A stretch of 64,000 bases of DNA, taken from contig JBAYIQ010000003.1 in NCBI GenBank assembly GCA_041665545.1, forward strand, positions 3,222 to 67,221, read 5' to 3'. A program made the position numbers and the translations under genes. The stretch is from Patescibacteria group bacterium (GTDB lineage: Bacteria; Patescibacteriota; Patescibacteriia; UBA1558; GWA2-36-10). Position 1 is the first letter of the stretch. Every line of letters starts with the position of its first letter. Shown one piece after another: positions 7,044 through 33,841 of this stretch. A model generated the notes under the pieces. It was not told the origin of the DNA and did not search any database. It saw only the letters and a list, made by a program, of their open reading frames with translations.

Positions 7044-9050
7044 ATGCCAGATAAAAATTTAATAAATACTATAAAATTTTTCTTGTTTTTGGGGTTATTG
7101 GTGCCATTAATAGTTGAAGGCAATACTATTTTTCCTTTTATTTTTTCTAAAGTTATTTTTTTTAGAATAATTGTTGATATTGCGGTGCTACTATTTTTAT
7201 GGACACTATGGTCGAAAAAAAATAAGCGCCTTACATTCCATTGGCCGGATATATTATTGTTAGTTTTTGTGTTGTGGGCAATCATATCGGCATTTTGGGG
7301 TGTTGATTTGCAGTATAGCTGGTGGACTGGCCAAGAGAGAATGAGCGGTTTAGTATCATTACTTCATTTTGTAGCTTATTTGTATTTGTTAGTCAATGTG
7401 TTTTCAGCCAAGGATTGGCTTTATTTTTTTAGAGGAATTTTAGCAGTAGGAATTATTATTTTTTTGAAGTCAATAAATGAATTGAACATCGGCCAACAAC
7501 GCGCCTCGGGGCCATTGGGCAATCCTATTTATTTAGGAGAGTATTTTCTTTATTTATTTTGGTTTGCTGGCTTATTATTTTTTATTAATAAAAATAAAAT
7601 TGAACGCTGGATAATGGCTATTTTTTTGTTCTTGGGCATTGTTGGTATTTTTATTTCCGGTAGTCGTGGACCATTGATGTCTTTGGCAGTAGCCCTAGTG
7701 CTTTATTTACTGTGGAATATTCTTCATATAAAAAAATTAAGTATTAAATTAGCACTAGTTTTTTTCGGCATTTCTATTGCCACGGTGATTGGTATGGGAA
7801 TTTTTACACCACAAATTGGTTTTATAAAAAACACGCCGATATTAAATAATTTAGCAGAAGTTAAAAATTTTAGTGGGTCATTGGCCAATAGATTCATAGT
7901 TAGTGGTATTGCCTGGCAATCATCTTTAGAGCGTCCTTTTGGTTGGGGCTGGGAAAATTTTCCTACGGCTTTTAGCATCCACTATAAGCCAGAATTATTA
8001 AAACGCGGTTGGGGTGATAGTAACTTTGATTCAGCTCACAATTTATACTTGGATATTTTAGTTGGCGCCGGTTTTGTCGGTTTATTTTTATGGCTAGCTT
8101 TTTTTGCCTTTATTATTTTTTACATTGGGCGTTTGTATAAAAAATCGGCCAACGAAAAGAATAAATATATTTTACTGATGGCTTTTGTGCTTTCTATTTT
8201 AACCCAATTTTTTGTGGCCTTTTTGCATCCCAGTGGTTATTTGCTTTTATTTATATTGTTAGCTTACATAATTTTTTGTATTAGGCAATCAGACAGCAAG
8301 CAGTTTACAATTGATTCACCTAAAATTATAGTCAAAAGTTTAATTATTATTTTTACTTTGCTGACTTTAATTTTTGTTTATCAAAATTTTAAGGCCTATA
8401 GCGAAAATAAAAATCAGCAAAAAGCTTATCGCAACATTGCCTATCAAAATTATACAGAAGCAGAAAATATTATTAAGGCCAGTTGGGGCTCTTGGGGTCC
8501 CTATGAACGGGATATTTTGCGCAATTATACTGAATATATTGAAGGTATTGGCCTTGGTAATCTGCCGCTAGAACTGCGTAGTGCTTATATACAAATTGTT
8601 AAAGATATAGCCTTAGAAACAGAGAAAAATATTGATAAATACAACAAAAAAAGCCCCACAGAGTACGAGTCCATGTTACGTTCTTATGTTATGCTCTGGG
8701 GAGCTGGCGATAAAAATGAGAATAAAATTAACGAAACATACCAAAAATTATTGGCTATCAATGATAAAAATCAGGCAGTTAATTTTACTTACTTCAACTA
8801 TTTGGCTATCAGCGGACAATGGGACAAGGCCATAGTCCTATTGGATAAAGTGATTAGTGATGAACCAGATATTTATTATGCCTATTGGTACAAAGCCAAA
8901 ATTTATCTTTATTTGAAAGATTATCAAAAGGCCTATGATAATTATTTGTTGGCCAAAGACAGGGGTTTTGCGCCTGACGGACTTGCTGATCAAAATTTAG
9001 TTAAATTGTTTGAGCAGTTAAAAGCTAGCTCTACTAGTCAGCTAAAGTAA
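7044..9050 (+). CDS. O-antigen ligase (Wzy_C) family membrane protein with C-terminal TPR domain (paralog 2)
   Basis: Same architecture as 4795-7029: polytopic N-terminal domain with SGSRGPLMSLAVALV and DSAHNLYLDILVGAGFVGLFL motifs; C-terminal TPR-like region (YYAYWYKAKIYLYLKDYQKAYDNYLLA). Confidence 0.6.
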   Translation: MPDKNLINTIKFFLFLGLLVPLIVEGNTIFPFIFSKVIFFRIIVDIAVLLFLWTLWSKKNKRLTFHWPDILLLVFVLWAIISAFWGVDLQYSWWTGQERMSGLVSLLHFVAYLYLLVNVFSAKDWLYFFRGILAVGIIIFLKSINELNIGQQRASGPLGNPIYLGEYFLYLFWFAGLLFFINKNKIERWIMAIFLFLGIVGIFISGSRGPLMSLAVALVLYLLWNILHIKKLSIKLALVFFGISIATVIGMGIFTPQIGFIKNTPILNNLAEVKNFSGSLANRFIVSGIAWQSSLERPFGWGWENFPTAFSIHYKPELLKRGWGDSNFDSAHNLYLDILVGAGFVGLFLWLAFFAFIIFYIGRLYKKSANEKNKYILLMAFVLSILTQFFVAFLHPSGYLLLFILLAYIIFCIRQSDSKQFTIDSPKIIVKSLIIIFTLLTLIFVYQNFKAYSENKNQQKAYRNIAYQNYTEAENIIKASWGSWGPYERDILRNYTEYIEGIGLGNLPLELRSAYIQIVKDIALETEKNIDKYNKKSPTEYESMLRSYVMLWGAGDKNENKINETYQKLLAINDKNQAVNFTYFNYLAISGQWDKAIVLLDKVISDEPDIYYAYWYKAKIYLYLKDYQKAYDNYLLAKDRGFAPDGLADQNLVKLFEQLKASSTSQLK

Positions 9051-11885: not shown

Positions 11886-13325
11886 GTGATGAAAAAAATT
11901 ATATTAGCACAAATCAACTATTCTCAAGATCGTTCAGAAAAAATTCTGCCAATGGGAATTTTGTGCGTTGGTAGTACTTTAAAAAAAGCGGGTTATGATG
12001 TTGAGCTTGTCAATATCAATGAAAAGGAAATAGCTAAAACAGCTGATTATATAGTCCAACAAGACCCCCTGTATGTCGGCTTGTCAGTGATGACTGGTAT
12101 TCAGACCCAGCATAGCGCCGAGTTATCTAAAAAGATTAAGGCCAAGAAAAATATTCCAATTGTGTGGGGCGGCATTCATCCCTCGCTTTTGCCAGAGCAA
12201 TGTTTGGGTGAGGATTATATTGATTACATAGTAATTTCTGAAGGAGAAATCAGTATTGTGGAGTTGACGGAAAAAATTATTCACCAGGAAGAGCCAGAGG
12301 ATGTATTGGGTGTTGCTTATAAAATAGCCGGTCAAGTCAAAATAAATCCTAGCCGACCTTTTATTACCGATCTAGATGAATACCGAATAGATTTTTCTTT
12401 GATTGATATAGAAAAATTTATTTTTCCCCTAGATAAATATAAGCGGGTAATTGCTTATAAGGCCTCACGTGGCTGTCCTTTTAATTGCGCTTTTTGTTAT
12501 AACAATTTATTTAATAAAAATCGTTGGCGTGTCTGGTCAATTGATACTGTCGTGGAAGATATACAATTTTTAAAAGACAAATATCAGATCGATGCGGTCA
12601 AGTTTTATGACGATAATTTTTTTGTCAGTAAGAGTCGAGCTTTAGAGATTTTAGAAAAAATAAACTTACCCTCACATTTAGAGATTAGGATTGATTCTAT
12701 TAACGAAGAAACTGCCATTAAGCTCAAGGAATACAAAGTTTTTGATATGCTCATAGGAGTAGAATCAGGTAGCGATAGGTTGTTGCAAATGATTGATAAA
12801 AAGTTTACAGTTGAAAAAGTTATGGAGTCTGTGAAGTTATTAGCTAAATATGATTTGCCGGCCTCATACTCGGTAATAGTTGGTTTACCGACCGAAACTA
12901 GCGAAGAGTTTGAGTCTACCATTAATTTGCTTTACAAAATTTATAAAGTTCACTCTAAGGCCGTTTTTACCTTAGGTGCGTATTTGCCTTACCCAGGATC
13001 GCGGATGTATGATTTTGCCATTGCTAATGGTTTCAAGCCACCAGTTAAGACCGAAGGGTGGGGTGCCATTGATCGCTTTCGTAAGAACTTTGACTCGCCT
13101 TGGGTTAATGTCCAAAAAGTTTGGCGAATTAGAGAGTATTTTAAGTTTTTAAACTGGAAATTAGGACCATTGATCAAGTGGTTTGAGTGGCGAATCAAGC
13201 ATCGTTTTTTTAATTTTCCAATCGATATTTATTTAACTGAATATTTTGCTGGTCTAGCGATTGAGCAAAAAGGTTGGTTGGGAAAAAGTTTGCGCCAAGT
13301 TTATAATCTAGCCAAAAGAGTTTAA
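11886..13325 (+). CDS. B12-binding domain radical SAM protein
   Basis: 479 aa. N-terminal cobalamin-binding Rossmann-like domain (GILCVGSTLKKAGYDVELVNI...). Radical SAM cluster motif CPFNCAFC (CxxxCxxC) in ASRGCPFNCAFCYNN. Confidence 0.65.
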   Translation: MMKKIILAQINYSQDRSEKILPMGILCVGSTLKKAGYDVELVNINEKEIAKTADYIVQQDPLYVGLSVMTGIQTQHSAELSKKIKAKKNIPIVWGGIHPSLLPEQCLGEDYIDYIVISEGEISIVELTEKIIHQEEPEDVLGVAYKIAGQVKINPSRPFITDLDEYRIDFSLIDIEKFIFPLDKYKRVIAYKASRGCPFNCAFCYNNLFNKNRWRVWSIDTVVEDIQFLKDKYQIDAVKFYDDNFFVSKSRALEILEKINLPSHLEIRIDSINEETAIKLKEYKVFDMLIGVESGSDRLLQMIDKKFTVEKVMESVKLLAKYDLPASYSVIVGLPTETSEEFESTINLLYKIYKVHSKAVFTLGAYLPYPGSRMYDFAIANGFKPPVKTEGWGAIDRFRKNFDSPWVNVQKVWRIREYFKFLNWKLGPLIKWFEWRIKHRFFNFPIDIYLTEYFAGLAIEQKGWLGKSLRQVYNLAKRV

Positions 13326-13345: not shown

Positions 13346-14443
13346 ATGAAAATATTAGGTATCAGCTTAGACCCCAGTATTTTGGACAAAGAATCAATAC
13401 CAGCCCAAAGGATTATTAAATTTGGACAAAATTTGGACAAATATTATTTATTAGTGCCAACTGATAAAGATCAAAAAAGTCAGCTAGCTGCTAATATATT
13501 TGTCGAATCATTGGGTTCTCATAACAAATTTTTCTTATTTTTCAAAATATACAAAAGAATAAGTGAAATAATAAAAAATGAAAAATTTGATCTACTGACT
13601 ACTCAGGATGCCTATTTTTTATCATTGATACTTATTTTTTTAAGTAGGAAACATGGAATAAAATTTGAAGTGCAGATTCATGGTTTTGAAAAATATCACG
13701 GTTTAAGAAAATTATTAGCTAATTATTCTTTGAGACAAGCGGATATCATCAGAACAGTTAGTATCAAAACCAAAGAATATTTAGTGGATAATTTTTCCAT
13801 ACCAGCCAAAAAGATTTATGTGTCTCCAGTGTTTGTAGATCGGCAAAAAATAGAAAATAGCAAAAATGAATTTAGTCTCCGAGATCTATATCAAAATGAT
13901 TTTATTTTTTTGACCGTCGGTAGATTGGTGCCAGTAAAAAATATTGTTCTGCAGATTAGGGCCATCAAGAAATTGAATTTAGATAAAGTGAAATTAGTTA
14001 TTGTTGGCGAGGGGCCAGACAAAGCCAATCTGCAAGCATTGGTTGCTCGCGAAAATCTAAATAAATCTATTATTTTTGTTGATGGCTATATAAAAAATTT
14101 AGCTGATTATTATAAAAGTGCTGATTGCCTATTGATAACCTCTAATATGGAGGGGTATTGTATGGTAGTGGCCGAAGCAGTATTGGCCGATCTACCGGTG
14201 ATTATGACCGATGTTGGCTGTGCCAATGATTTAGTGGAAAATAATATAAATGGTTTTGTTATTCCAATAAATAATTTAGATGTTTTAGTAGCTAAAATGA
14301 AAAAAGTAGTTGAAGATCAGAAATTATTAACAGAATTTAAAACAAGGCACACAGCCTATAAGGAAAAGATTTTGAGTCAGCAGGCTTTGTCTGATATTAT
14401 TATTGATAATTGGCAAAAAGTAATATACGGGCATGAAAAATAA
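13346..14443 (+). CDS. glycosyltransferase family 4
   Basis: 365 aa. C-terminal GT4 motif EGYCMVVAEAVLADLPVIMTDVGCANDLV. Confidence 0.6.
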   Translation: MKILGISLDPSILDKESIPAQRIIKFGQNLDKYYLLVPTDKDQKSQLAANIFVESLGSHNKFFLFFKIYKRISEIIKNEKFDLLTTQDAYFLSLILIFLSRKHGIKFEVQIHGFEKYHGLRKLLANYSLRQADIIRTVSIKTKEYLVDNFSIPAKKIYVSPVFVDRQKIENSKNEFSLRDLYQNDFIFLTVGRLVPVKNIVLQIRAIKKLNLDKVKLVIVGEGPDKANLQALVARENLNKSIIFVDGYIKNLADYYKSADCLLITSNMEGYCMVVAEAVLADLPVIMTDVGCANDLVENNINGFVIPINNLDVLVAKMKKVVEDQKLLTEFKTRHTAYKEKILSQQALSDIIIDNWQKVIYGHEK

Positions 14444-15470
14444 ATTGTTGATTATCACACAAAAGGTTGATAAAAATGACCCAGTGCTTGGCTTTTTTCA
14501 TGGCTGGCTTTTAGAGTTTGCAAAAAAATATGAAAAAATTACGGTAATTTGTTTAGTTAAGGCAGAATATAATTTACCAAGTAATATAAAAGTGTTGTCG
14601 TTGGGCAAGGAAAATAGAATTTCTCGTTTAAATTACGTTATTAATTTATATAAGTATATTTGGCAAGAGCGCGCTAATTATGATCAGGTGTTTGTGCACA
14701 TGAATCCGGAATATTTAGTTTTAGCTGGTTGTTTTTGGCGTTGCTGGGGCAAGCGCATAGGGTTCTGGTATAATCATGCCAAGGGTGGTATTAAGGCTAA
14801 ATTAGCCATTAAATTGGCCCACAAGGTATTTTATACTTCTTCTTACGCTTTTGCAGCTCGATATCAAAAATCACAGGTCATGCCAGTGGGTATTGCGACT
14901 GATATTTTTAAAATTAATAAATTGAAACAAGTATCTGAACCTTTCAGGTTGTTGAGCTTGGGCCGCATTTCACCAGTTAAAGATTTAGAAACACTGGTGG
15001 CAGCAGCTAAAATTTTGGCTAAAGAAAATTTTGATTTTTTGTTAGATATTTATGGTACGGCACCAGTTCAGGACGAGGATTATTATAAAAAAATAAGAGA
15101 GCAGGCAAAGACTTTGGAGGTAGATAATAAAATAATTTTTCATTCGTCTGTAGTTTATCAGCAAACGCCAGACATTTATAATAGTCATGATCTTTTTATT
15201 AATTTAACTCCCAGCGGTAGTTTTGATAAAACTATTTTAGAAGCCATGGCTTGTGGTACTTTAGTTTTGATTTGTAATAAGTCTTTACACGACGATTTGC
15301 CTGATAATTTTTTATTTAAAGAGCACGAGGCCATTGACTTGGCTAGGAAAATAAAGGCCATATCTTTAATTGATAAACAGAAATATCAAGAGAAATTTAG
15401 GCAGTATGTTTTAGAAAAACACAGTGTGGATATTTTAATTAGTCGTTTACAGCAAGTATTGGGTGAATAA
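14433..15470 (+). CDS. glycosyltransferase family 4
   Basis: 345 aa. GT4-type C-terminal motif DKTILEAMACGTLVLICN. Start overlaps the previous gene by 11 nt (translationally coupled). Confidence 0.55.
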   Translation: MKNKLLIITQKVDKNDPVLGFFHGWLLEFAKKYEKITVICLVKAEYNLPSNIKVLSLGKENRISRLNYVINLYKYIWQERANYDQVFVHMNPEYLVLAGCFWRCWGKRIGFWYNHAKGGIKAKLAIKLAHKVFYTSSYAFAARYQKSQVMPVGIATDIFKINKLKQVSEPFRLLSLGRISPVKDLETLVAAAKILAKENFDFLLDIYGTAPVQDEDYYKKIREQAKTLEVDNKIIFHSSVVYQQTPDIYNSHDLFINLTPSGSFDKTILEAMACGTLVLICNKSLHDDLPDNFLFKEHEAIDLARKIKAISLIDKQKYQEKFRQYVLEKHSVDILISRLQQVLGE

Positions 15471-15488: not shown

Positions 15489-16613
15489 ATGGATAAAAAA
15501 ATTAAAATTTTATTTGCTATTGATTATTTTGCTGTTGGTGGAGCTCCACTAGTGGTGTTAAATCAAATTAATGGTCTAAACAAAGGTTTATTTGATCCTT
15601 ATATTTTGGTTCTTTATAAGACAGAGAAACCAACATTTTTTGCTGAATTGAATTTTGGACCGGATAAGATTTTCCAGATGAATTTAAAAAATCGTCGCCT
15701 TTTTGATTATAAAACTTGGCGTATGATTTTTAAGATTTTAAAGCGAGAAAAATTTGATGTGGTTTATACTCACTTATTCTTGACCAATTTAATTGTCAGA
15801 TCACTGGCAATTTTAGTCAGAGTTCCAGTCATTATTTCTTTTGAGCATAGCTCTTACTCAGGTAAGCATTTGTGGCAAATTTTTATTGACAAAATCCTTT
15901 CTTTTTTTACCAATCGTATTATTGTCTCTACTAAATCTGTGGCTGAATTTACTGCTAGGCAAGAGAAAATTTCTATTAAAAAATTTGTGGTAATAGCTAA
16001 TCCAGTTATTTTGCCAAAAAAAAATGAGTTTGCTATTTCTGAATTAAGAAAAAAGTTGAATTTGCCATTAGGTTCTTTTGTGGTCATGACACTAGGAAGG
16101 TTTTCCGAAGAGAAGGGTTTGGAATACTTTTTGCAAGCAGCTAAAATAATTTCTCCACTCATAAAAAATGTTTATTTTTTGCTGGTAGGTTATGGTGGAC
16201 TTCAACAAAAGTTAAGGCAAAAGATATTGGAGTTAGAGCTAGAAGATAAATGTAGTCTAGTAATTGATCCTCAACACGCTAAAGAATATTTGTATATTAG
16301 CGATTTATTTGTTCTACCCTCTTTAAGGGAGGGGCAGTCAATAGTCACCTATGAAGCAATGACGGCAGGATTGCCCGTAATTGCTTCGCGTCTGGATAGC
16401 CTTACTGATATTATTGATGATGGTAGGAGCGGAGTTTTAGTAGAGCCAAAAGATAGTGATGCTATAGCTGAAAAAATAATTTATCTTTACCAAAATCCTG
16501 CTATCAGACAGAAATATAGTGAAGCTGGTAAAGAAAAAACTAAAGAATATAATCTTGAAAGAAATATAAAAGAATTTGAAATTTTAATTAAAAATTTAAT
16601 TCAAAAGCAATGA
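15489..16613 (+). CDS. glycosyltransferase family 4
   Basis: 374 aa. EGQSIVTYEAMTAGLPVIASRLDSLTDIIDDGRSGVLVEP (E-x7-E GT4 signature). Confidence 0.65.
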   Translation: MDKKIKILFAIDYFAVGGAPLVVLNQINGLNKGLFDPYILVLYKTEKPTFFAELNFGPDKIFQMNLKNRRLFDYKTWRMIFKILKREKFDVVYTHLFLTNLIVRSLAILVRVPVIISFEHSSYSGKHLWQIFIDKILSFFTNRIIVSTKSVAEFTARQEKISIKKFVVIANPVILPKKNEFAISELRKKLNLPLGSFVVMTLGRFSEEKGLEYFLQAAKIISPLIKNVYFLLVGYGGLQQKLRQKILELELEDKCSLVIDPQHAKEYLYISDLFVLPSLREGQSIVTYEAMTAGLPVIASRLDSLTDIIDDGRSGVLVEPKDSDAIAEKIIYLYQNPAIRQKYSEAGKEKTKEYNLERNIKEFEILIKNLIQKQ

Positions 16614-17923
16614 ATACTGATAAAATTATAAATTTTTCCGATAATATAATCGATAATAAGCTTATAGATTATCTGGCCGGAAGAGATGAGGTAGGGCAGA
16701 TAGTTATTGGCCAAGATTATCATTTGAAAAAGAATAAAATATATGACTTTGGCGATGGTTATATAATGCCAACTAGTATAGCCATTGTGTCAGAAAAACA
16801 TATTTTTCCCAGAATTAATTCTAATACTGGCTGTACCATGGCCACGATAGTTATAACTGATTTTTTTAAGCAGTTTCCTAATTTTGATAAGGCCGACTTT
16901 ATTAAATTGACTGAATATATAATTGGGGGGTTCTTTTATCATTTACAATTTAAACTAAATTATTTTTCGCCGTTAGTAGAAAGAAATAAGTTTGATATTA
17001 ATAGTGAGCAATATTTTAAAAATATATTACGTTACGGTGATCGAGCGGTGGTAGATAATTTTAGTTCAGAGATAAGATATTCAGAGGGACTAAAAGATGG
17101 TCACGAAAAACTTGAAATGGATGTTGAGGAATTGTTAAAATTAGTAAAAATAAAACTTGGCCGGGAATTTTATATTATGCCAAAAAAATATTTTGGTTCA
17201 TTTTTTGGTGGTAATCATTTTTTTGAGTTGCAAGTCGCAGACAATAATAAGGATGATTTATTTATAACTTTCCATACGGCGGGGGATAATTTATTAAGAA
17301 TTTTAGATAAGGAAAGCGATTTTTATAAATTTATTGTAGGTAATGGTTTAGAGCCAGTTAACATTGAAACCGGTCAAGCAAAAATGTTTTTAGAAATTGT
17401 AAAATTATTTATAAATTATAATCGAGCCTATATAGCCAACACCATGATCATGATTGAAAATTATTTTAATAAAATAAAACCAGGGTTGATTATTAAAATT
17501 TTAGCGATAGATCGACATGACGGTTTATTTAAAGAAAAAGTCAATGGTAAAGATTATTACATTTTCCGTCAAGGCAGTATTAGCTCGGTTCCTGGTCAAA
17601 CCCACATTCTTTCGGGCTATTACAATGCTAATTCATTTCTTTGGCAGGCCGGCGAAAACATTGGTGCTGCCTATAATACAATTGATCATGGTATGGCCAC
17701 AAGTATTAGTAGTCGTAGAAGGGAAAAGTTATCTGATAATAAAGTGACATTGGTTAGATTAAAAAAGTTAGTAAATTGGTGGCCACTTAGAACTATCAGT
17801 CAGGTAGAATTAATAGATTTAGAGAATGATTTTGTTCGACATCTTGAGAAAAAGAAATTAATTAAAATTGTGAGTAGGCTTAAGCCAATTTATAACATAA
17901 AAACAAATATTAATGGCGATTAA
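16610..17923 (+). CDS. divergent RtcB-like (RNA 3'-phosphate ligase fold) protein
   Basis: 437 aa. Matches to the metal/GTP-binding signature blocks of RtcB in the right order: NSNTGCTMA (cf. VDIGCGMNA), FGGNHFFELQV (cf. GTGNHFIEI), ITFHTAGDN (cf. MLHSGSRG), IDRHDG, NTIDHGMATSISSRRREK (cf. SCSHGAGRVMSRTKAKK). The first Asp of the DxGC block is replaced by Asn. Confidence 0.4.
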   Translation: MNTDKIINFSDNIIDNKLIDYLAGRDEVGQIVIGQDYHLKKNKIYDFGDGYIMPTSIAIVSEKHIFPRINSNTGCTMATIVITDFFKQFPNFDKADFIKLTEYIIGGFFYHLQFKLNYFSPLVERNKFDINSEQYFKNILRYGDRAVVDNFSSEIRYSEGLKDGHEKLEMDVEELLKLVKIKLGREFYIMPKKYFGSFFGGNHFFELQVADNNKDDLFITFHTAGDNLLRILDKESDFYKFIVGNGLEPVNIETGQAKMFLEIVKLFINYNRAYIANTMIMIENYFNKIKPGLIIKILAIDRHDGLFKEKVNGKDYYIFRQGSISSVPGQTHILSGYYNANSFLWQAGENIGAAYNTIDHGMATSISSRRREKLSDNKVTLVRLKKLVNWWPLRTISQVELIDLENDFVRHLEKKKLIKIVSRLKPIYNIKTNINGD

Positions 17924-18725
17924 AAATATGTCACATGGCTTTCTTAAAAATTTTTTATTAGTTAAAAAGACTAAAGATAATATTAAGAATGGAAATAAAA
18001 TTTTGTGCGGCTATCGTTTACCCAGTTTATTTTTTAAAAAGTATTGGTTATGGTTTTCCGATCCGATTGACATAAAGGGTGCAGACATGGTGAATTTTTT
18101 TTCTTATAATAAGATTGATCGAGATGAATTTTATTGCAAAGAGGGTATGACTACAGTAATTGATTTAAATCAGGGTATTGAGGCCATTTTTTCGAAAATG
18201 AGAAATAACTTTATTATTAAACAAATTAGAAAAGGGGAGAGAAATGGTATTGTTATTAAGCTGGATAAAAATTTTAGCGAGTTTAAAAATATATATTATG
18301 TGTTTAGGAAGAGTAAAAATTTGACGAAAGATAACCCCAATGTTTTAGCGGATAATGGTATTTTATTTTCGGCTTATTATAATAATAGTATGATTGCCGG
18401 CGGTATATTTATTTCAGATGGTGTAAACATAAGAGCTTGGGTATTGGCGTCGCTAAGAAAAGTAAGTGGTTCAAAGGATCGGGAAATAATTGGCCAAGCT
18501 AATAGAATGGTCATCACTGAAGCTATTAAGTATGCAAAGAATAGTGGCCACAAACAGTTTGATTTGGGTGGTATAAATCCATATTCTACCGATATTGGAG
18601 AAAAAAATTTGGCTGAGTTTAAAGAGAGTTTCGGTGGCGCGAGAATAAAATGTTATTATTACTATAAAGTCTATTCAAAATTGTTAAAACTTTTGATGAG
18701 ATTTAGGGGATTTAAAAAAGTATGA
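17913..18725 (+). CDS. FemAB-like / GNAT-fold (Acetyltransf_6-like) protein
   Basis: 270 aa. C-terminal ...GGINPYSTDIGEKNLAEFKESFGG resembles the F-K-x-x-F-G-G terminus of FemABX family proteins. Central beta-rich region GGIFISDGVNIRAWVLAS. Low-confidence family call. Confidence 0.3.
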   Translation: MAIKNMSHGFLKNFLLVKKTKDNIKNGNKILCGYRLPSLFFKKYWLWFSDPIDIKGADMVNFFSYNKIDRDEFYCKEGMTTVIDLNQGIEAIFSKMRNNFIIKQIRKGERNGIVIKLDKNFSEFKNIYYVFRKSKNLTKDNPNVLADNGILFSAYYNNSMIAGGIFISDGVNIRAWVLASLRKVSGSKDREIIGQANRMVITEAIKYAKNSGHKQFDLGGINPYSTDIGEKNLAEFKESFGGARIKCYYYYKVYSKLLKLLMRFRGFKKV

Positions 18726-19660
18726 AGTTTATTATTACTGTCGATACAGAAGGTGATAATCAGTGGTCTAAAGAAAAAAAAATTACCACGGAAAATTTAA
18801 AATTTTTGCCGCGCTTTCAGAGATTGTGCGAAAGATATGGTTTTATTCCGACTTATTTATTGTCTTATGAGGTAACCCAAGATGAAACAGCGGTTAAAAT
18901 ATTGTCCGATTGGCAAGGGCTTAAAAAGGCTGAAATTGGAGCACATTTGCATCCGTGGGTGATGTCAGATTATAAGGGTGAAGGGCAGGCTTACCCGAGC
19001 GAGTTGACTGATCATGATTTAAAGCAACAACTTGAAATGTTGACATGGGCAATTGAAGAAAAATTTAATAATCGTCCGACCAGTTATCGGGCCGGCCGTT
19101 GGGGTTTTAATGAAAGGCAGGCTAAAATTTTGAAAAATTTAGGATATTTGGTTGACTGTTCAATTACGCCGAAAATCAACTGGGCAAAAACTTTAGGGTT
19201 GATCGGAGGACAAGGCGGACCAGATTTTCGCTTTAGCCAAGTCATGCCTTATTATATTTTTGATGGTTTGCTGGAAATTCCGATGACAATTTTATTTACT
19301 GGCATATTAAAAAAAGAAAAAAATGCCTGTGCTAATTTTTTTCTAGGTTTAACAAATGGATTTTTGAAAAAAATATTAAATAAAATATTGTTTCGTCAAA
19401 AGTGGCTCAGAATTTTTCCTGGCAGCGGGGAGGGAGATTGGATTAATATTTATAAATCGGCTAAACTTAATAAATTACCATGTCTTGAGTTCATGATTCA
19501 TTCGTCAGAACTGATGCCGGGCGGCAGCCCTTACGCCAAGGATGAGGCGGCCGTGGAATTAATTTATGATCAATTGGAAAAAATGTTTAATTATTTTAAC
19601 AGCCAAGGTCTAGCCGGCGCGAGTTTAAGTGAATTCGCCAGAGATTATAAAAATTATTAA
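18722..19660 (+). CDS. putative polysaccharide deacetylase / carbohydrate-esterase-like protein
   Basis: 312 aa. N-terminal FIITVDTEGDN (cf. NodB/CE4 TFDDG motif) and GAHLHPW histidine motif. Cytoplasmic; no signal peptide seen. Confidence 0.3.
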   Translation: MKFIITVDTEGDNQWSKEKKITTENLKFLPRFQRLCERYGFIPTYLLSYEVTQDETAVKILSDWQGLKKAEIGAHLHPWVMSDYKGEGQAYPSELTDHDLKQQLEMLTWAIEEKFNNRPTSYRAGRWGFNERQAKILKNLGYLVDCSITPKINWAKTLGLIGGQGGPDFRFSQVMPYYIFDGLLEIPMTILFTGILKKEKNACANFFLGLTNGFLKKILNKILFRQKWLRIFPGSGEGDWINIYKSAKLNKLPCLEFMIHSSELMPGGSPYAKDEAAVELIYDQLEKMFNYFNSQGLAGASLSEFARDYKNY

Positions 19661-20456
19661 TAGATTTATGACTTTTTTAGAATTTAAAGAAAAATGCCTC
19701 AGGCCGAAATTAAACAAAATGTCAGGCGATAGAATCTATCGTTGGGAAAGAAATTTTTCCGTAAGGTTGTCATGGTTGCTTGTAAAAATATTCCCAAAAT
19801 TAAAAGCTAATCAAGTGACGGTAATTTCCTTGTTTTTATTATTAATAATTTTTTTAGCAAATTTTTTTAAAACAAATGCAGTAGAAAATTTTTATATCGC
19901 TTTAATACAGTTGATAACCCTATACTTTGTTGGCATATTGGATAAAATTGATGGAGAAGTTGCCAGATATAGAGATCAATATTCGCAAAGGGGTATCTAC
20001 TATGATAGGATGGTTCATTTTTTTTACCCCCTGGTTTTTTATTTTTCCATCGGACATTTTTATTATTTTATCAGCAACTATGCAGCTATATTTTTTCTTA
20101 CAATTTTATTAGCAGTATTTTCAATAAATTATGTATTTTTTACAGAGGCTATATGTTACATTGGCGTTAGAATGAAACAAGCAGATTATGTTTTCTATGA
20201 TCTAATACCCGAGGGTACTAAAAAAAAGTCAAAACGTTTGCCTATTTTTTTGCGACTACTTGATTATTTGACTTATATGATGTACACTTGGACGCTTTTT
20301 TATTATATTGCCGTCACAGTGGTAAGTTTGGGAAATTTTATGCTTAGTTATTATTTTTATATATTTCAAATTATATTATCATTGTTCGTTGTTGGTTATA
20401 AGATTTTTTATTTCTTACCAAGAGAAAAAATGTATGATGAAGCATTTTTAAAATGA
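19629..20456 (+). CDS. CDP-alcohol phosphatidyltransferase family membrane protein
   Basis: Polytopic membrane protein with DKIDGEVARYRDQYSQRGIYYDRMVH. This fits D-G-x2-A-R-x8-G-x3-D of the CDP-alcohol phosphotransferase signature (last D is H). Alternative non-overlapping start ATG at 19668. Confidence 0.55.
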   Translation: MNSPEIIKIINRFMTFLEFKEKCLRPKLNKMSGDRIYRWERNFSVRLSWLLVKIFPKLKANQVTVISLFLLLIIFLANFFKTNAVENFYIALIQLITLYFVGILDKIDGEVARYRDQYSQRGIYYDRMVHFFYPLVFYFSIGHFYYFISNYAAIFFLTILLAVFSINYVFFTEAICYIGVRMKQADYVFYDLIPEGTKKKSKRLPIFLRLLDYLTYMMYTWTLFYYIAVTVVSLGNFMLSYYFYIFQIILSLFVVGYKIFYFLPREKMYDEAFLK

Positions 20457-21613
20457 GCATGATTATGAAGATAATTTATATAGCTAATTCAAGAATACCA
20501 ACGGAAAAGGCTCATGGCCACCAGATTTGTCAGATGTGCTCTGAATTTTCGCGACTCGGTTACGAGACGGAATTATGGTTACCCACAAAAGATAATAATA
20601 TTAAACAAGATATTTTTACATATTATAAAATGGAAAAAACTTTCAAAATAAAAATTATTGAAAGTTATGATTTTATCCGTTTTGATAGATTTTTGTTTAA
20701 CAGGAGTTATTGGTTGCAGAGTTTAAATTTTTCTCTAAAGATAATGTTTGAAAAAATTCAACCGGGGGATTTAATTTATACTAGGGATATTTTAACCGCT
20801 TTTATGTTGAGCCTTAGGGGTGGGCAGGTGTCTTACGAATGTCACAGCCTGATAAAATACGCATGGTTGTTGAAATCATTAAGCCGGCCTATAAAAAAAA
20901 TAATTGTATTAACTCAAGGAATTAAAAATATTTTTGTAAGCTTGGGGTACAAAGAAGAAAATATAATAGTTGGTCCCGATGCGGTTGATATAGAAAAATT
21001 TGATCTGGATTTAACTATAGAAAAGGCTAGATCTAAATTGAGCTTACCGAGCGAAAAGAAAATTCTTGGGTTTACGGGTAGTTTTACCACCATGAATCAG
21101 GATAAAGGAATTAAAGATATTTTATTAGCGCTAAAAATTATATCGAAAAAAAAAGATATTTTATTTGTCGCGATCGGTGGCAATCAAAGTGATATAAATT
21201 TTTATCGACAGACAGCGGATGATCTCGGTGTAGGTGAGAGTGCTTTGTTTTTACCTAAAGTTGATCAGAATATTTTAGCGGTTTATCAGAAGGCTTTTGA
21301 TGTATTGTTGATGCCTTTTCCCAATACGACTCATTATGCTTTTTATATGTCGCCTTTAAAAATGTTTGAATACATGGCTTCTCAACGTCCGATTGTTTCC
21401 TCTGATTTAGTAACTATTAGGGAGGTTCTTAATGAAAATAATTGTCTTTTTTGTCGCTCAGATGATCCGGTTGATTTAGCTTTAAAAATAAAAATTATTT
21501 TGAAAAATCCATATTTAGCTAAAAAAATAAGTCAACAAGCCTATCAAGATGTACAGTCTTATACTTGGGAAAAGAGAGCAGAAAACATTATAAATTTTAT
21601 AAATAAAAATTAA
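20453..21613 (+). CDS. glycosyltransferase family 4
   Basis: 386 aa. C-terminal MSPLKMFEYMASQRPIVSSD (GT4/GT1 E-x7-E region). 4-nt overlap with the upstream gene. Confidence 0.55.
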   Translation: MSMIMKIIYIANSRIPTEKAHGHQICQMCSEFSRLGYETELWLPTKDNNIKQDIFTYYKMEKTFKIKIIESYDFIRFDRFLFNRSYWLQSLNFSLKIMFEKIQPGDLIYTRDILTAFMLSLRGGQVSYECHSLIKYAWLLKSLSRPIKKIIVLTQGIKNIFVSLGYKEENIIVGPDAVDIEKFDLDLTIEKARSKLSLPSEKKILGFTGSFTTMNQDKGIKDILLALKIISKKKDILFVAIGGNQSDINFYRQTADDLGVGESALFLPKVDQNILAVYQKAFDVLLMPFPNTTHYAFYMSPLKMFEYMASQRPIVSSDLVTIREVLNENNCLFCRSDDPVDLALKIKIILKNPYLAKKISQQAYQDVQSYTWEKRAENIINFINKN

Positions 21614-21717: not shown

Positions 21718-21969
21718 ATGAATAACCAAGAAATAAAATCTAACGCAGTCTATACAACAAAGGAAACTCAGGAATTACTCAAAATTAGCAGTAGTACTAT
21801 TAAAAGGATGCTTAAAAATGGCCTAATTAAAGCCAATAAAGTTGGTGGTCAATACAGAATTTTAGGCAAAGAAATTCTGCGATTGGTATCGCCGAAAGTT
21901 GAGCAGGAAGCCATTCAATCTTATTTAAGTTTAAAGCAAAAAGTAGTAAATAAAATTAATAGATGGTAA
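21718..21969 (+). CDS. helix-turn-helix DNA-binding protein (excisionase/MerR-like HTH family)
   Basis: 83 aa. VYTTKETQELLKISSSTIKRMLKNGLIKANKVGGQYRI matches the excisionase-type HTH DNA-binding domain (TIGR01764-like). Confidence 0.55.
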   Translation: MNNQEIKSNAVYTTKETQELLKISSSTIKRMLKNGLIKANKVGGQYRILGKEILRLVSPKVEQEAIQSYLSLKQKVVNKINRW

Positions 21970-23797: not shown

Positions 23798-24910
23798 ATG
23801 AGGTATTGCAAAAAATGCATTCAGCCAGACACTCGTCCCAATGTTAAGTTTGATAGTAAGGGTATATGTTTAGCTTGTCGTTTTGCTGAGAAACAAAATA
23901 AAATTGATTGGGCTGCTCGGCGACGTGAATTAGATAAGATAGTTGAGTTTGGTAAAAAATATAATGTTTCGGGTTATGATTGTATTATTGGTGTCAGTGG
24001 TGGCAAGGACAGCACGCGACAAGCACTTTTTGTGAGGGATGAGCTTAAAATGAAACCATTGTTAGTTTCTTGTTCATATCCTCCAGAACAATTGACTGAG
24101 ATAGGGGCACATAATATTTCTAATTTAATTTCTTTGGGTTTCGATTGTATTAATGTTAGTCCAGATCCAGTCGTCTGGAAAATTTTAATGCGTGAAGGTT
24201 TTCTGCGTTTTGGTAATTGGTGTAAATCAACAGAGTTAGCCCTTTATGCTAGTGCTCCTAAAATTGCCATTGCTTATCATATTCCAATTATATTTCTTGG
24301 TGAGAATCCAGCTATTGCTTTTGGCGACCTGAGCGTCGGTTCAACGACCGGAGATGCCAATAAAATGAAATATTGTCATACTTTAAAAGGCGGGACAGAA
24401 GTTTTGGTGACTAATGAAATATCAGAAAAAGATCTTTTTTGGTATTACTATCCTTCGGATGAGGAAATGGAGTGGATAAAGATGCGCATTGTTTATTTGG
24501 GTTATTATGTGCATGATTTTACTAGATTTAAGAATGCGGAATTTGCCATGAAGCGAGGCTTACGTATACGTAAAGATTCACCCCAAGATACTGGGGATGT
24601 TTATGGATTTGAGGCACTAGATGATGATTTTGTTATTATTAATCAGATGTTTAAATATTTAAAATTTGGTTTTGGCAAATCCAATGATCAATTAAGCGAA
24701 GCTATTAGGTTAGGTTTAACAACCCGTAAAAAAGCAATCAGTTTAGCTAAAAAGTACGATGGAAAATGTGCTCCTCGTTTTATAAAAAAGTTTTGTAGCT
24801 ATATTGGTATTAGTGAAAAAAAGTTTTGGGAGATTGCGGAAAAATTTCGCAATAATGACATCTGGCAGAATATCGGAGGGGAATGGCATATAAAAACCGT
24901 ACTAGAATAA
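23798..24910 (+). CDS. N-acetyl sugar amidotransferase (PseA/WbuX-like PP-loop enzyme)
   Basis: N-terminal Cys pairs (CKKC...CLAC) and PP-loop GVSGGKDS. Sits directly upstream of HisH/HisF-like genes, as in WbuXYZ/PseA loci. Confidence 0.6.
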   Translation: MRYCKKCIQPDTRPNVKFDSKGICLACRFAEKQNKIDWAARRRELDKIVEFGKKYNVSGYDCIIGVSGGKDSTRQALFVRDELKMKPLLVSCSYPPEQLTEIGAHNISNLISLGFDCINVSPDPVVWKILMREGFLRFGNWCKSTELALYASAPKIAIAYHIPIIFLGENPAIAFGDLSVGSTTGDANKMKYCHTLKGGTEVLVTNEISEKDLFWYYYPSDEEMEWIKMRIVYLGYYVHDFTRFKNAEFAMKRGLRIRKDSPQDTGDVYGFEALDDDFVIINQMFKYLKFGFGKSNDQLSEAIRLGLTTRKKAISLAKKYDGKCAPRFIKKFCSYIGISEKKFWEIAEKFRNNDIWQNIGGEWHIKTVLE

Positions 24911-24919
24911 ATATAAATT

Positions 24920-25558
24920 ATGGGGACAAAAATTTTAATTATTGATTACAAAGTAGGTAATCATCAATCAATAGTTAATGCTCTGAATTTTTTAGGGTAT
25001 GATTTTATTGTTTCTAGCCGTAAATCAGATATTATCAAAGCGCAATCTTATATTTTACCAGGAGTGGGTGCTTTTGGAGAGGCGATGAAAAATTTTAATA
25101 AGTTAGATATTTTAGATTGCTTACAGGAGCAAGTGTTGATAAAGAAAAAGCCTATTTTGGGCATTTGTCTGGGTATGCAGATTTTGGCCAAAGATTCAGA
25201 AGAGAGTGGTTTTTGTCAGGGACTTGGCTGGATTGATGGTCATGTGGTTGCTCTTAATAAAGCAAAAGATCTAAGGATACCTCATGTGGGCTGGGATAAT
25301 ATTAAATTAATAAAAAAAGATCCACTTTTTTTACGGACTGACAATAAAGAATTGAATTATTATTTTGATCACAGTTATCATTTTGTTTGTGCTGATAAAT
25401 TTATTTCCGCCAGATGTTATTATGGGGAAGATTTTGCGGTAGCAGTGCAAAAGAATAATATTTTTGGTGTTCAATTTCATCCGGAGAAGAGTCAGCGTAA
25501 TGGTTTAAAATTATTGCGTTGTTTTTTGGATATATCATTAAAATATCATAGCGTTTAA
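24920..25558 (+). CDS. hisH: glutamine amidotransferase, HisH-like (WbuY-like)
   Basis: 212 aa. Class I GATase catalytic motif GICLGMQIL and FHPEKS His/Glu. Confidence 0.7.
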   Translation: MGTKILIIDYKVGNHQSIVNALNFLGYDFIVSSRKSDIIKAQSYILPGVGAFGEAMKNFNKLDILDCLQEQVLIKKKPILGICLGMQILAKDSEESGFCQGLGWIDGHVVALNKAKDLRIPHVGWDNIKLIKKDPLFLRTDNKELNYYFDHSYHFVCADKFISARCYYGEDFAVAVQKNNIFGVQFHPEKSQRNGLKLLRCFLDISLKYHSV

Positions 25559-25562
25559 AATA

Positions 25563-26429
25563 ATGTTAAAAAAAAGATTAATTGCAGTTTTAGTAATAAA
25601 AAATGGTCTAGTCGTGCAGAGCATTGGTTTTAGAAAATACTTGCCAATTGGAAAACCCGATATTGCTGTTGATTTTTTAAACTCCTGGGGTATTGATGAA
25701 ATTGTTGTTTTGGATATTGATGCTAGTACACAAAAAAGGGGTCCAGATTTTGCCATGATAGAGAAACTTTCTAGAAAAAATTTTACACCATTGTCGATTG
25801 GTGGAGGCATCTCCAGCGTAGCAGAAATGAAAAAAGTGATTCATTTTGGTGCAGAAAAAATTGTTATTAATAAAGCAGCTTTACAAAATCCAAATTTAAT
25901 TTCCCAGGCAGTTGATATTTTGGGTCGCCAATCTGTTATTGTTTCGGTTGATGTCAAAAAATTTGGTAATAAATATTTTGTTTTTTCTGATTCAGGGAGC
26001 AGAAAAACTTTACTTGAGGTGACGGAATGGGTTAAAAAAATAGAAGAATTGGGGGCTGGGGAAATATTTTTAAATTCAATAGATAGAGATGGAACAAAAA
26101 TGGGATACGACCTGGCTTTGATAAAATTAGTGTCACGTTCAGTTACTATTCCAGTTATTGCTTGCGGTGGAGCTGGTCAGCCTAAGCATTTTATTCAAGC
26201 CTTTGAAAATGGAGTTGTAGCGGTAGCTGCTGGTAATTTTTTCCATTTTACAGAGCATTCCCCAGTTGTTCTAAAGGCTTTTATGAAGAATATAGTTAGT
26301 AATGTTCGTATAGAAACTAATTATGATTATGATGGCTTTGGTTTTTTAGCAGACGGTCGAATTGCAAAAAAATCCGAAACATATTTAGATAAGATTAGAT
26401 TTGAATATCAAGCAAAAGAAATTATATGA
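25563..26429 (+). CDS. hisF: imidazole glycerol phosphate synthase cyclase subunit HisF-like (WbuZ-like)
   Basis: 288 aa. (beta/alpha)8 HisF-like motifs VVLDIDAS...LSIGGGISS...ACGGAGQPKHF. Confidence 0.6.
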   Translation: MLKKRLIAVLVIKNGLVVQSIGFRKYLPIGKPDIAVDFLNSWGIDEIVVLDIDASTQKRGPDFAMIEKLSRKNFTPLSIGGGISSVAEMKKVIHFGAEKIVINKAALQNPNLISQAVDILGRQSVIVSVDVKKFGNKYFVFSDSGSRKTLLEVTEWVKKIEELGAGEIFLNSIDRDGTKMGYDLALIKLVSRSVTIPVIACGGAGQPKHFIQAFENGVVAVAAGNFFHFTEHSPVVLKAFMKNIVSNVRIETNYDYDGFGFLADGRIAKKSETYLDKIRFEYQAKEII

Positions 26430-30246: not shown

Positions 30247-30255
30247 ACTAAAAAA

Positions 30256-33838: not shown

Positions 33839-33841
33839 TTT

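What the first reader, a model, noticed from the sequence alone, without database searches (positions are those of the whole stretch)
16610..17923. Highly divergent RtcB-like protein embedded in a glycan biosynthesis operon
All five signature blocks of the RtcB RNA ligase fold can be aligned in order (…TGCTMA…, …GGNHFFE…, …FHTAGD…, …DRHDG…, …DHGMATSISSRRREK…). Several metal-binding residues are substituted (DxGC becomes NTGC; SRG missing). The gene is translationally coupled to the GTs upstream and to a FemAB-like gene downstream. Either a housekeeping RNA-repair enzyme has been captured by the operon, or this is an RtcB-fold enzyme repurposed for a nucleotidyl/ligation step on a non-RNA substrate.
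Basis: partly seen in the sequence, partly recalled or inferred. Interest (0 to 1): 0.6.

Follow-up and report, generated by a model that had tools for sequence, protein, structure and literature searches.

The report
RtcB-like enzyme paired with phosphotransferase
This gene encodes a real but strongly remodelled relative of the RNA ligase RtcB, from a rare clade that always sits beside a membrane CDP-alcohol phosphotransferase in sugar-polymer gene clusters, so it probably applies RtcB's GTP-driven phosphate-activating chemistry to a glycan or lipid and not to RNA.

Summary
ORF 16610-17923 (+, 437 aa) is a true RtcB homologue: Pfam PF01139 scores 35 bits (cut-off 27), the family profile hits P. 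horikoshii RtcB at E=1e-33, and the AF2 model (pLDDT 89.6) matches only RtcB structures. It keeps the His nucleophile, the Cys/His metal ligands and both guanine-reading residues. It lacks the M2 Asp, the Arg that grips the 5'-OH RNA strand and the HGAGR Arg.

It belongs to a rare clade (40 of 51 full-length hits) with a coordinated signature: Gly52→Lys, Asp75 lost, Arg189 lost, KG→HN. In all 20 informative loci (GC 23-66%) the clade gene lies next to, or within 1.7 kb of, a PF01066 phosphotransferase whose fourth signature Asp is His, usually with a GT4. Canonical RtcBs instead sit with RtcA/RtcR or archease.

A non-RNA role coupled to the PF01066 enzyme is well supported (~0.8). The exact step is inferred. 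My preferred model (~0.35) is GTP-dependent ligation of a phosphomonoester left by the PF01066 enzyme to a sugar hydroxyl. The close rival (~0.27) is synthesis of the NDP-alcohol donor. I found no paper on this pairing. NCBI already labels the protein "RtcB family protein".

The parts
16610..17923 (+). RtcB-like protein (437 aa; GenBank MFA6253165.1, 'RtcB family protein'). It is the most divergent member of a remodelled RtcB clade. Kept: C75, N202, H203, E206, H222, H303, H360, K431. Changed: N72 (Asp in RtcB), D226 (Arg), D304 (Asn), T364 (Arg), K41 (Gly).
19629..20456 (+). PF01066 CDP-alcohol-phosphotransferase-family membrane protein, 'His-variant' (D105-x2-D108-G-x2-A-R-x8-G122-x3-D126-x3-H130). 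It is the conserved partner of the RtcB-like clade, here two ORFs downstream. NCBI calls a 262-aa version (P0066), implying a start about 39 nt further in.
20453..21613 (+). GT4 glycosyltransferase directly after the partner. The same arrangement is found in at least 9 related loci. The best solved relative by profile is a sucrose-phosphate synthase (C-terminal domain only).
14433..15470 (+). ~340-aa GT-B/GT4-type protein of a specific family that recurs upstream of the pair in 8 loci.
15489..16613 (+). GT4 glycosyltransferase whose stop codon overlaps the RtcB-like start codon (ATGA).
17913..18725 (+). GNAT/FemAB-like ORF (sub-threshold hits only), overlapping the RtcB-like gene by 11 nt. It is conserved (55% identity) in relative L029, which lacks the RtcB-like gene, so it is not part of the family-wide module.
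18722..19660 (+). ORF with weak polysaccharide-deacetylase/GH57-like hits, conserved (53% identity) in L029. It is a lineage-specific insert between the RtcB-like gene and its partner.

Best explanation
General claim (confidence about 0.8): ORF 16610-17923 is a catalytically competent RtcB-fold enzyme of a distinct clade. It no longer works on RNA. It acts in the same pathway as the PF01066 membrane phosphotransferase (19629-20456) and the surrounding GT4 glycosyltransferases, making a phosphodiester-linked component of a surface glycan or glycolipid.

Committed mechanism (about 0.35). All steps below are inferred.
1. The enzyme reacts with GTP at a Cys/His-bound metal centre to form a covalent His360-GMP, as RtcB does.
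2. The PF01066 partner uses a CDP-activated donor and a phosphorylated polyol or sugar acceptor, as its nearest characterised relatives (DIPP, AIP and PIP synthases) do. This leaves a product ending in a phosphomonoester.
3. The RtcB-like enzyme transfers GMP to that phosphomonoester, giving X-pp-G.
4. A sugar or glycan hydroxyl attacks the activated phosphate, releasing GMP and forming a second phosphodiester bridge.

In short, RtcB's 3'-phosphate/5'-OH ligation chemistry is applied to a glycoconjugate. Shown here: homology, fold, residue conservation and loss, and gene linkage.
For: Homology and fold.

Catalytic core under selection at 20-30% identity. The invariant residues are C75, N202, H203, E206, H222, H303 and H360; K431 is nearly invariant. 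They correspond to Pho Cys98, Asn202, His203, Glu206, His234, His329, His404 and Lys480, whose roles are M1/M2 ligands, GTP phosphate contact, guanine N1/N2 and O6 readers, and nucleophile (PMC9745838).

RNA-specific feature lost. Pho Arg238 / Eco Arg189, which binds the first two phosphodiesters of the 5'-OH strand (R189A slows sealing 200-fold), is never Arg in the clade (PMC8051266).

Clade signature. 40 of 51 full-length hits share Gly52->Lys, loss of Asp75, loss of Arg189 and Lys299-Gly300->His-Asn, against 8 fully canonical sequences.

Linkage. The PF01066 partner is adjacent or within 1.7 kb in 20 of 20 informative non-redundant loci, with GC from 0.23 to 0.66. This includes a convergent arrangement (L008) and a 4.16-Mb genome (L027). 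Canonical controls lack it.

Partner relatives. The closest solved relatives are AF2299 and IPCT/DIPPS (E 4e-17 and 8e-14). The best NCBIfam hits are AIP, DIPP and PIP synthases. All of these use inositol-1-phosphate acceptors and leave a terminal phosphate (PMC4634129).

Nucleotide logic. The partner keeps the cytosine-contacting (P/A)(N/D)xx(T/S) motif (PMC4634129), while the RtcB-like enzyme keeps its guanine readers. The two enzymes therefore most simply use different nucleotides in consecutive steps.

No defence-system match was found.
Against: - No biochemical data exist. Every pathway step is inferred.
- In L028 an IPCT-like cytidylyltransferase occupies exactly the slot of the RtcB-like gene upstream of a His-variant partner. 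No NTP-transferase is found in the 20 RtcB-like loci. This pattern is what the rival donor-supply model predicts.
- The source of the partner's CDP donor is not identified, and no inositol-phosphate synthase was seen in the loci.
- The M2 Asp ligand is lost, and two members even replace the bridging Cys with Asp, so the metal and GTP chemistry may differ from RtcB.
- The window's own case is atypical. Its RtcB-like protein is a singleton (at most 31% identity to anything). Its partner lacks the RYxRK and ERFD motifs of the core partners. Its closest relative cluster, L029, has the partner but no RtcB-like gene within 8 kb.
- The AF2 alignment included canonical RtcBs, so the fold match is not fully independent of sequence homology.
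Confidence: 0.35

Rival explanations
1. Donor-supply model. The RtcB-like enzyme performs only RtcB steps 1 and 2 on a small polyol or sugar phosphate (GTP + X-P -> His-GMP -> X-pp-G) and releases an NDP-alcohol. The adjacent PF01066 enzyme then uses that as its donor. The RtcB-like enzyme would be a non-orthologous replacement of the cytidylyltransferase that normally accompanies, or is fused to, such transferases (IPCT in IPCT/DIPPS).
For: - L028 has an IPCT-like NTP_transferase directly upstream of a His-variant partner, in the same order as the fused IPCT/DIPPS and as RtcB-like->partner.
- No NTP_transferase homologue is present in the 20 RtcB-like loci.
- The residue lost (Arg189) is specific to step 3, and R189A barely affects RNAppG formation (PMC8051266).
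- RtcB is known to make stable DNA3'pp5'G caps (PMC8051266).
- Tailoring methyltransferases and AsnB-like genes next to the pair resemble pathways that modify a CDP-activated substituent before transfer (bioRxiv 10.64898/2026.02.12.704994).
Against: - Nucleotide mismatch. The RtcB-like clade keeps the guanine-specific Glu206 and Lys480 equivalents, whereas the partners keep the cytosine-contacting (P/A)(N/D)xx(T/S) motif and the rest of the nucleotide pocket (PMC9745838, PMC4634129).
- The positional argument rests on a single locus.
- L029 shows that the partner can exist without either supplier nearby.
Confidence: 0.27
2. It is still an RNA (or DNA) 3'-phosphate/5'-OH ligase, a housekeeping or repair enzyme that happens to lie in a glycan operon.
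For: It belongs to Pfam RtcB. The nucleophile, most metal ligands and the GTP contacts are retained. The FemAB-like neighbour would use aminoacyl-tRNA if its annotation were right (sub-threshold).
Against: - The linkage to PF01066 in 20 of 20 loci across unrelated lineages cannot be coincidence.
- No archease, RtcA or RtcR is present in the window or in the annotated loci, unlike the canonical controls.
- The 5'-OH strand-binding Arg and the M2 Asp are lost.
- NCBIfam RtcB equivalog models score 33 bits against a cut-off of 407.
- The window contains no tRNA or Rfam RNA.
Confidence: 0.07
3. Another role for the fold. It could be a non-catalytic subunit or scaffold of the PF01066 enzyme. It could be a guanylyltransferase making a GDP-sugar for the neighbouring GT4s. 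It could be a cyclic-phosphate hydrolase or cyclase acting on a polyol phosphate.
For: GT4 genes are almost always nearby. RtcB has an intrinsic 2',3'-cyclic phosphodiesterase step (PMC8051266). Overlapping start and stop codons with the partner in many loci suggest co-expression.
Against: Invariance of the full catalytic set at about 20% identity argues against a pseudo-enzyme. The strict neighbour is PF01066, not any one GT4 family. No specific evidence supports cyclic phosphates.
Confidence: 0.12

Closest known systems
Canonical RtcB RNA ligases (P. horikoshii PH1602, E. coli RtcB, human RTCB; Pfam PF01139)
   Same: Same fold (Foldseek prob 1.0, TM about 0.6) and homologous sequence. Same His nucleophile, Cys/His/His M1 site, His203, Asn202, and guanine readers Glu206 and Lys480.
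   Different: Lacks the M2 Asp95 (Asn here, Gly/Ser/Ala in the clade), Arg238/Eco Arg189 (5'-OH strand binder) and the HGAGR Arg. Gains an invariant Lys in the PDxHxG loop and His-Asn in place of Lys-Gly. The genomic context is glycan/PF01066, not RtcA/RtcR or archease. NCBIfam equivalog scores are far below cut-off.
RtcB-catalysed 3'-phosphate capping (DNA3'pp5'G)
   Same: It is a precedent that RtcB chemistry can stop at a stable X-pp-G product (PMC8051266), as the donor-supply model requires.
   Different: The substrate there is a polynucleotide end. Here a small-molecule, lipid or glycan phosphate is proposed but not shown.
Bifunctional IPCT/DIPPS (PDB 4MND) and AF2299 (4O6M): CDP-alcohol phosphotransferases with an attached donor-making or cytosolic domain
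   Same: They are the closest solved relatives of the partner protein (E 8e-14 and 4e-17). The upstream-activator, downstream-transferase layout mirrors RtcB-like->partner, and L028 has the unfused IPCT-like version.
   Different: The activator here has an RtcB fold, not an NTP_transferase fold. The partner has His in place of the fourth signature Asp, the proposed catalytic base (PMC4634129).
PIP, AIP and DIPP synthase pathways (PF01066 enzyme plus a phosphatase that removes the terminal phosphate)
   Same: The partner's best NCBIfam matches are these synthases. Their products end in a phosphomonoester that needs a dedicated follow-up enzyme (PMC4634129).
   Different: All scores are far below the family cut-offs (40-44 bits against 170-580). 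Here the follow-up enzyme would ligate and not hydrolyse. No inositol-phosphate synthase was seen in the loci.
CDP-activated phospho-substituent pathways of glycans (TarI/TagD + TagF/TarL; FtaB/FtaC/FtaD of C. difficile)
   Same: The pathway logic is the same: activate X-phosphate with an NMP, optionally tailor it (by a methyltransferase), then transfer X-phosphate to a sugar. Methyltransferase genes flank the pair in several loci (bioRxiv 10.64898/2026.02.12.704994).
   Different: Those pathways use classical cytidylyltransferases and TagF-type transferases that lack the CDP-AP motif. None involves an RtcB-fold protein.

Membership tests
RtcB (Pfam PF01139) | Sequence match to the family model above its gathering score | tested here: met
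   35 bits against a cut-off of 27, E=1.3e-8, query 133-431. The family profile against PhoRtcB gives 120 bits, E=1e-33.
RtcB (Pfam PF01139) | RtcB fold | tested here: met
   AF2 model with pLDDT 89.6 and pTM 0.91. The only significant Foldseek PDB hits are 16 RtcB chains, TM 0.57-0.64. Caveat: the alignment used for modelling contained canonical RtcBs.
RtcB (Pfam PF01139) | Histidine nucleophile that forms His-GMP (Pho His404 / Eco His337) | tested here: met
   H360 in DHG, invariant in all 51 aligned sequences.
RtcB (Pfam PF01139) | M1 metal ligands Cys98, His234, His329 | tested here: met
   C75, H222 and H303 are invariant in the family. Two distant clade members have Asp in place of Cys.
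RtcB (Pfam PF01139) | M2 metal ligands Asp95, Cys98, His203 | tested here: not met
   His203 and Cys are present, but Asp95 is N72 here and Gly/Ser/Ala in the clade.
RtcB (Pfam PF01139) | Guanine-specific contacts (Glu206 to N1/N2, Lys480 to O6) and Asn202 to the GTP phosphates | tested here: met
   E206 and N202 are invariant and K431 is nearly invariant. Roles are from PMC9745838.
RtcB (Pfam PF01139) | Arg238 (Eco Arg189) that binds the 5'-OH polynucleotide strand | tested here: not met
   D226 here. It is never Arg in 40 clade members and always Arg in 8 canonical ones. Role is from PMC8051266.
RtcB (Pfam PF01139) | Arg of the HGAGR motif (Eco Arg341) | tested here: not met
   T364 here and variable in the clade. 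I could not verify its exact role in the papers held.
RtcB (Pfam PF01139) | GTP/Mn2+-dependent joining of 3'-P or 2',3'>P with 5'-OH RNA ends | not testable with these tools
   Needs an enzyme assay.
RtcB equivalogs (NCBIfam PRK09588, TIGR03073) | Score above the curated equivalog cut-off | tested here: not met
   32.7 bits against 407, and 19.2 bits against 271.8.
CDP-alcohol phosphotransferase, class I (PF01066): partner ORF 19629-20456 | Match above the Pfam gathering score | tested here: met
   29.2 bits against 22. The partner-family profile against AF2299 gives E=3.8e-17.
CDP-alcohol phosphotransferase, class I (PF01066): partner ORF 19629-20456 | Eight-residue signature D1xxD2GxxAR...GxxxD3xxxD4 | tested here: not met
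   Seven of the eight residues are present. D4 is His130. The same is true of 16 of 17 RtcB-adjacent partners and 110 of 120 homologues. D4 is the proposed catalytic base (PMC4634129).
CDP-alcohol phosphotransferase, class I (PF01066): partner ORF 19629-20456 | P(D/N)xx(T/S) motif contacting the cytosine ring | tested here: met
   ANQVT here, with the Asn and Thr kept and Pro replaced by Ala. The motif is present in 15 of 17 partners and 114 of 120 homologues.
FemAB (PF02388): ORF 17913-18725 | Match above the Pfam gathering score | tested here: not met
   13 bits against 24 (E=0.044). The GNAT Acetyltransf_6 model scores 13.9 against 22. The homologue in L029 has only a 'faint' FemAB hit.

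The most novel reading that the evidence does not exclude
The remodelled RtcB clade is the first RtcB-fold enzyme family acting on a non-nucleic-acid substrate. It would be a GTP-dependent, His-GMP-mediated activator or ligase of phosphomonoesters, working with a His-variant CDP-alcohol phosphotransferase to build phosphodiester bridges in bacterial surface glycoconjugates (either model above, or a close variant).
Probability: 0.6. Interest if true: 0.85.

Novelty: new variant of a known kind. Interest (0 to 1): 0.7.

Why it matters
RtcB chemistry (His-GMP, then X-pp-G, then a phosphodiester) is so far known only for RNA and DNA ends. A clade dedicated to glycan or lipid phosphates would extend it to a new class of substrates. 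It would also give a function to a large uncharacterised His-variant branch of the CDP-alcohol phosphotransferases, and would point to an unrecognised route to phosphodiester-linked surface polymers in Patescibacteria and other bacteria. In practice, it warns that 'RtcB family protein' annotations in glycan clusters should not be read as RNA ligases. It also offers a well-defined pair of genes for biochemical testing.

Tried and rejected
- Single-sequence methods gave nothing: phmmer against PDB found no RtcB and single-sequence AF2 gave pLDDT 30.
- The word-indexed homology search found only the protein itself, and only 5 proteins with the family profile. The exhaustive search was needed.
- The search for related loci with the full alignment failed for lack of conserved stretches. 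A sub-alignment worked.
- 'The pair replaces a missing initiating phosphoglycosyl transferase': rejected for the window, which has a WbaP-type PF02397 gene at 41795-43159. L029 has one too.
- 'FemAB-like/tRNA link': rejected as a family feature. The FemAB-like and deacetylase-like ORFs occur only in the window and its relative L029.
- Defence-system context: no PADLOC hits.
- RNA features in the window: no tRNA and no Rfam hits.
- GT4 and GTB340 profiles against PDB gave only generic GT4 matches. The SPS hit covers only the donor-binding domain, so it says nothing about the acceptor.
- The plasmid search returned canonical RtcBs only, which served as a control.
- Literature searches for RtcB together with CDP-alcohol, phosphatidyltransferase, glycosyltransferase, polysaccharide or Patescibacteria found no paper on this association. 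The E. coli mutational paper (Maughan and Shuman 2016) is not held, so the roles of Eco Arg341 and Arg345 remain unverified.
Full report
**1. Observation**

Several independent tests show the similarity to RtcB is not chance:
- Pfam PF01139 scores 35 bits, above the 27-bit gathering score (E=1.3e-8).
- Pairwise BLASTP to E. coli RtcB (fetched) gives E=5e-9 with the motifs aligned.
- A profile of the protein's own family hits P. horikoshii RtcB at E=1e-33 and human RTCB at 2e-23.
- An AlphaFold model built on a 49-sequence alignment is confident (pLDDT 89.6, pTM 0.91). Its only significant matches among solved structures are 16 RtcB chains (E 1e-13 to 1e-16, TM 0.57-0.64), and the next hit has E=0.29.

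Single-sequence methods failed, which shows how divergent the protein is. NCBI already names it 'MAG: RtcB family protein [Patescibacteria group bacterium]' (MFA6253165.1), so family membership as such is not new.

The gene overlaps the upstream GT4 by 4 nt (ATGA) and the downstream ORF by 11 nt. It lies in a roughly 40-kb glycan region containing GT4s, three Wzy_C proteins, an ABC exporter, nonulosonic-acid genes, two B12-radical SAM genes and a WbaP-type transferase.

**2. A distinct, rare clade with a remodelled active site**

The word-indexed search of 5.8 billion clusters found only the protein itself. The exhaustive HMMER search of 1.84 billion representatives found 58 hits, none above 31% identity.

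I aligned the full-length hits with E. coli RtcB and took residue roles from PMC9745838 and PMC8051266.

Residues that are kept, in query numbering:
- the nucleophile H360
- the M1 ligands C75, H222 and H303
- H203 and N202
- the guanine readers E206 and K431

These are invariant or nearly so.

In 40 of 51 sequences a coordinated set of positions differs from the canonical state:
- Eco Gly52 becomes Lys.
- Asp75, the M2 ligand, becomes Gly, Ser, Ala or Asn.
- Arg189 becomes a non-Arg residue.
- Lys299-Gly300 becomes His-Asn.
- Arg341 is variable.

Eight sequences are fully canonical at all these positions, and three fit neither pattern. Arg189 (Pho Arg238) is the residue that grips the first two phosphodiesters of the 5'-OH strand. 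Its mutation slows sealing 200-fold but slows RNAppG formation only 3-fold.

The window protein is the most divergent member. It has QD for PD, HD for HN and FRQG for YRHN, but it keeps every invariant residue. Conservation of the catalytic set at 20-30% identity argues for an active enzyme that still binds GTP but no longer holds a polynucleotide.

**3. Genomic linkage**

I collected context from three sources:
- contig look-ups
- a genome-collection scan (annotated)
- a metagenome scan

I analysed these with local HMMs and all-against-all BLAST.

In all 19 informative non-redundant loci found from the RtcB side, plus L027 found from the partner side, a PF01066 gene lies beside the RtcB-like gene:
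- In 17 loci it directly abuts or overlaps. One of these (L008) is in convergent orientation.
- In L016 and L025 one small ORF intervenes.
- In the window two ORFs intervene (1.7 kb).

The loci range from 23% to 66% GC. By their record titles they include Patescibacteria/Saccharibacteria/Parcubacteria MAGs, a gammaproteobacterial MAG and a 4.16-Mb genome.

Other genes recur around the pair:
- A GT4 follows the partner in at least 9 loci.
- A specific ~340-aa GT-B protein recurs upstream in 8 loci (14433-15470 in the window).
- AsnB-like, methyltransferase and truncated UGDH-like genes recur less often.

Canonical RtcBs used as controls sit with rtcA/rtcR (E. coli) or archease (T. roseum). No archease, RtcA or RtcR, no tRNA or Rfam RNA, and no defence-system model was found here.

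**4. The partner**

The partner proteins form a PF01066 subfamily of 250-310 aa. Their signature is D-x2-D-G-x2-A-R-x8-G-x3-D-x3-H, so the fourth Asp, the proposed catalytic base whose D93N mutation nearly abolishes M. tuberculosis PIP synthase activity (PMC4634129), is His. This holds in 16 of 17 RtcB-adjacent partners and in 110 of 120 database homologues.

They keep the (P/A)(N/D)xx(T/S) motif that contacts the cytosine ring. Their closest solved relatives are AF2299 and the bifunctional IPCT/DIPPS. The best NCBIfam hits are AIP, DIPP and PIP synthases, all far below cut-off.

**5. Reverse test**

I looked up three members of the partner subfamily.
- **L027:** an RtcB-like gene lies directly upstream.
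- **L028:** an IPCT-like NTP_transferase sits in exactly that slot, with no RtcB-like gene.
- **L029:** this is a relative of the window's organism, with these identities to the window proteins: WbaP 67%, FemAB-like 55%, deacetylase-like 53% and partner 38%. It has neither gene within 8 kb.

So the RtcB-like clade seems to depend on the partner, but the partner does not always need it. No IPCT-like gene occurs in any RtcB-like locus.

**6. Mechanism**

Firmly supported (about 0.8): this is a GTP-binding, probably self-guanylylating RtcB-fold enzyme. It works with the PF01066 enzyme on a non-RNA phosphate in glycoconjugate synthesis.

Two specific models remain.

*Model B (preferred, about 0.35).*
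- The partner, like its characterised relatives, uses a CDP donor and a phosphorylated acceptor, and leaves a terminal phosphomonoester. The RtcB-like enzyme guanylylates that phosphate and a sugar hydroxyl attacks it, forming a second phosphodiester.
- Only the substrates are new in this model. It also fits the nucleotide evidence: guanine readers are kept in the RtcB-like enzyme and cytosine contacts are kept in the partner.

*Model A (about 0.27).*
- The RtcB-like enzyme stops at X-pp-G and supplies the donor, replacing the cytidylyltransferase.
- This model best explains the L028 displacement and the absence of NTP-transferases in the RtcB-like loci. RtcB's DNAppG capping is a precedent.
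- It requires either CTP use by the RtcB-like enzyme or GDP-alcohol use by the partner, and the motifs argue against both.

A genuine RNA ligase (about 0.07) and other roles (about 0.12) are less likely.

**7. Caveats specific to this window**
- The window's RtcB-like protein is a singleton. Its partner has relatives at 83-43% identity, yet no RtcB-like relative above 31% identity exists in the databases.
- The pair is separated by two lineage-specific ORFs.
- The window's partner lacks the RYxRK and ERFD motifs of the core partners.
- The family-level inference may therefore apply less strictly to this copy.
- The rest of the genome could not be searched for a canonical RtcB.

**8. Novelty**

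Seven literature searches found no paper linking RtcB-family proteins to CDP-alcohol phosphotransferases or glycan synthesis. The family label is known. The clade, its signature, the conserved pairing and the implied non-RNA chemistry appear to be undescribed. I rate it a new variant of a known kind, of high interest if confirmed biochemically.

Noticed in passing
window 19629-20456 and P0061-P0180: A large subfamily of stand-alone PF01066 proteins (110 of the 120 listed) has His in place of the fourth 'absolutely conserved' Asp of the CDP-alcohol phosphotransferase signature. That Asp is the proposed catalytic base, and D93N nearly abolishes PIP synthase activity. No function is known for this variant.
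   Followed up: partly
L027:6593-7969 and P0022: Two members of the broader RtcB-like clade have Asp in place of the metal-bridging Cys (SINDGM versus S(L/I)NCGM). This suggests a different metal centre.
   Followed up: no
L028:7176-8849: An unfused IPCT-like cytidylyltransferase plus a His-variant PF01066 pair in a MAG (GCA_023384335.1). It is the split version of bifunctional IPCT/DIPPS, next to a YfhO-family membrane protein.
   Followed up: partly
L029 (whole locus) versus window 17913-20456 and 41795-46653: A related organism has a shorter syntenic cluster: FemAB-like, a 325-aa ORF, GT4, partner, flippase, WbaP, Wzy_C and MCP. It has no RtcB-like gene and lacks the roughly 20-kb nonulosonic-acid block, so the window's cluster looks like an expanded version.
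   Followed up: partly
window 263-3967: A 1234-aa ORF with no Pfam match lies in a segment of 43% GC, against about 32% GC for the glycan region that starts near 4 kb.
   Followed up: no
window 11886-13325 and 38615-40084: Two B12-binding radical SAM genes lie inside the glycan cluster. L013 also has one, next to a methyltransferase. They may be sugar C-methylases or similar tailoring enzymes.
   Followed up: no
window 23798-27685: A HisH/HisF-like glutamine amidotransferase/cyclase pair (24920-26429) is flanked by two paralogous ORFs with no Pfam match (23798-24910 and 26426-27685).
   Followed up: no
window 27700-37033: A complete-looking nonulosonic-acid block: GNAT, NeuB, a CMP-sugar synthetase-type cytidylyltransferase, a formyltransferase, two DegT aminotransferases, a PseB-like dehydratase, a weak polysialyltransferase-like ORF and a GFO/IDH oxidoreductase.
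   Followed up: no
window 4795-7029, 7044-9050, 43244-45406: Three large Wzy_C (O-antigen ligase/polymerase-like) membrane proteins in one region. TPR repeats are clear in the C-terminal part of the first and only weakly hinted in the second.
   Followed up: no
window 21718-21969: An 83-aa ORF between the GT4 and the ABC exporter. Its sequence looks like a small helix-turn-helix DNA-binding protein. This was not tested.
   Followed up: no
L002:4728-5708: A CofD-family gene (PF01933) lies in a cluster that carries the RtcB-like/PF01066 pair. From general knowledge, CofD transfers a phospho-alcohol from a GDP-activated donor (LPPG), which is a precedent for GDP-alcohol phosphotransfer. It was seen in one locus only.
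   Followed up: no
L007:10225-12108: In a 1.27-Mb Parcubacteria contig both the RtcB-like gene and its partner are split into several short ORFs, as are most neighbouring genes. This is probably due to frameshift errors in the assembly and not to pseudogenes.
   Followed up: no
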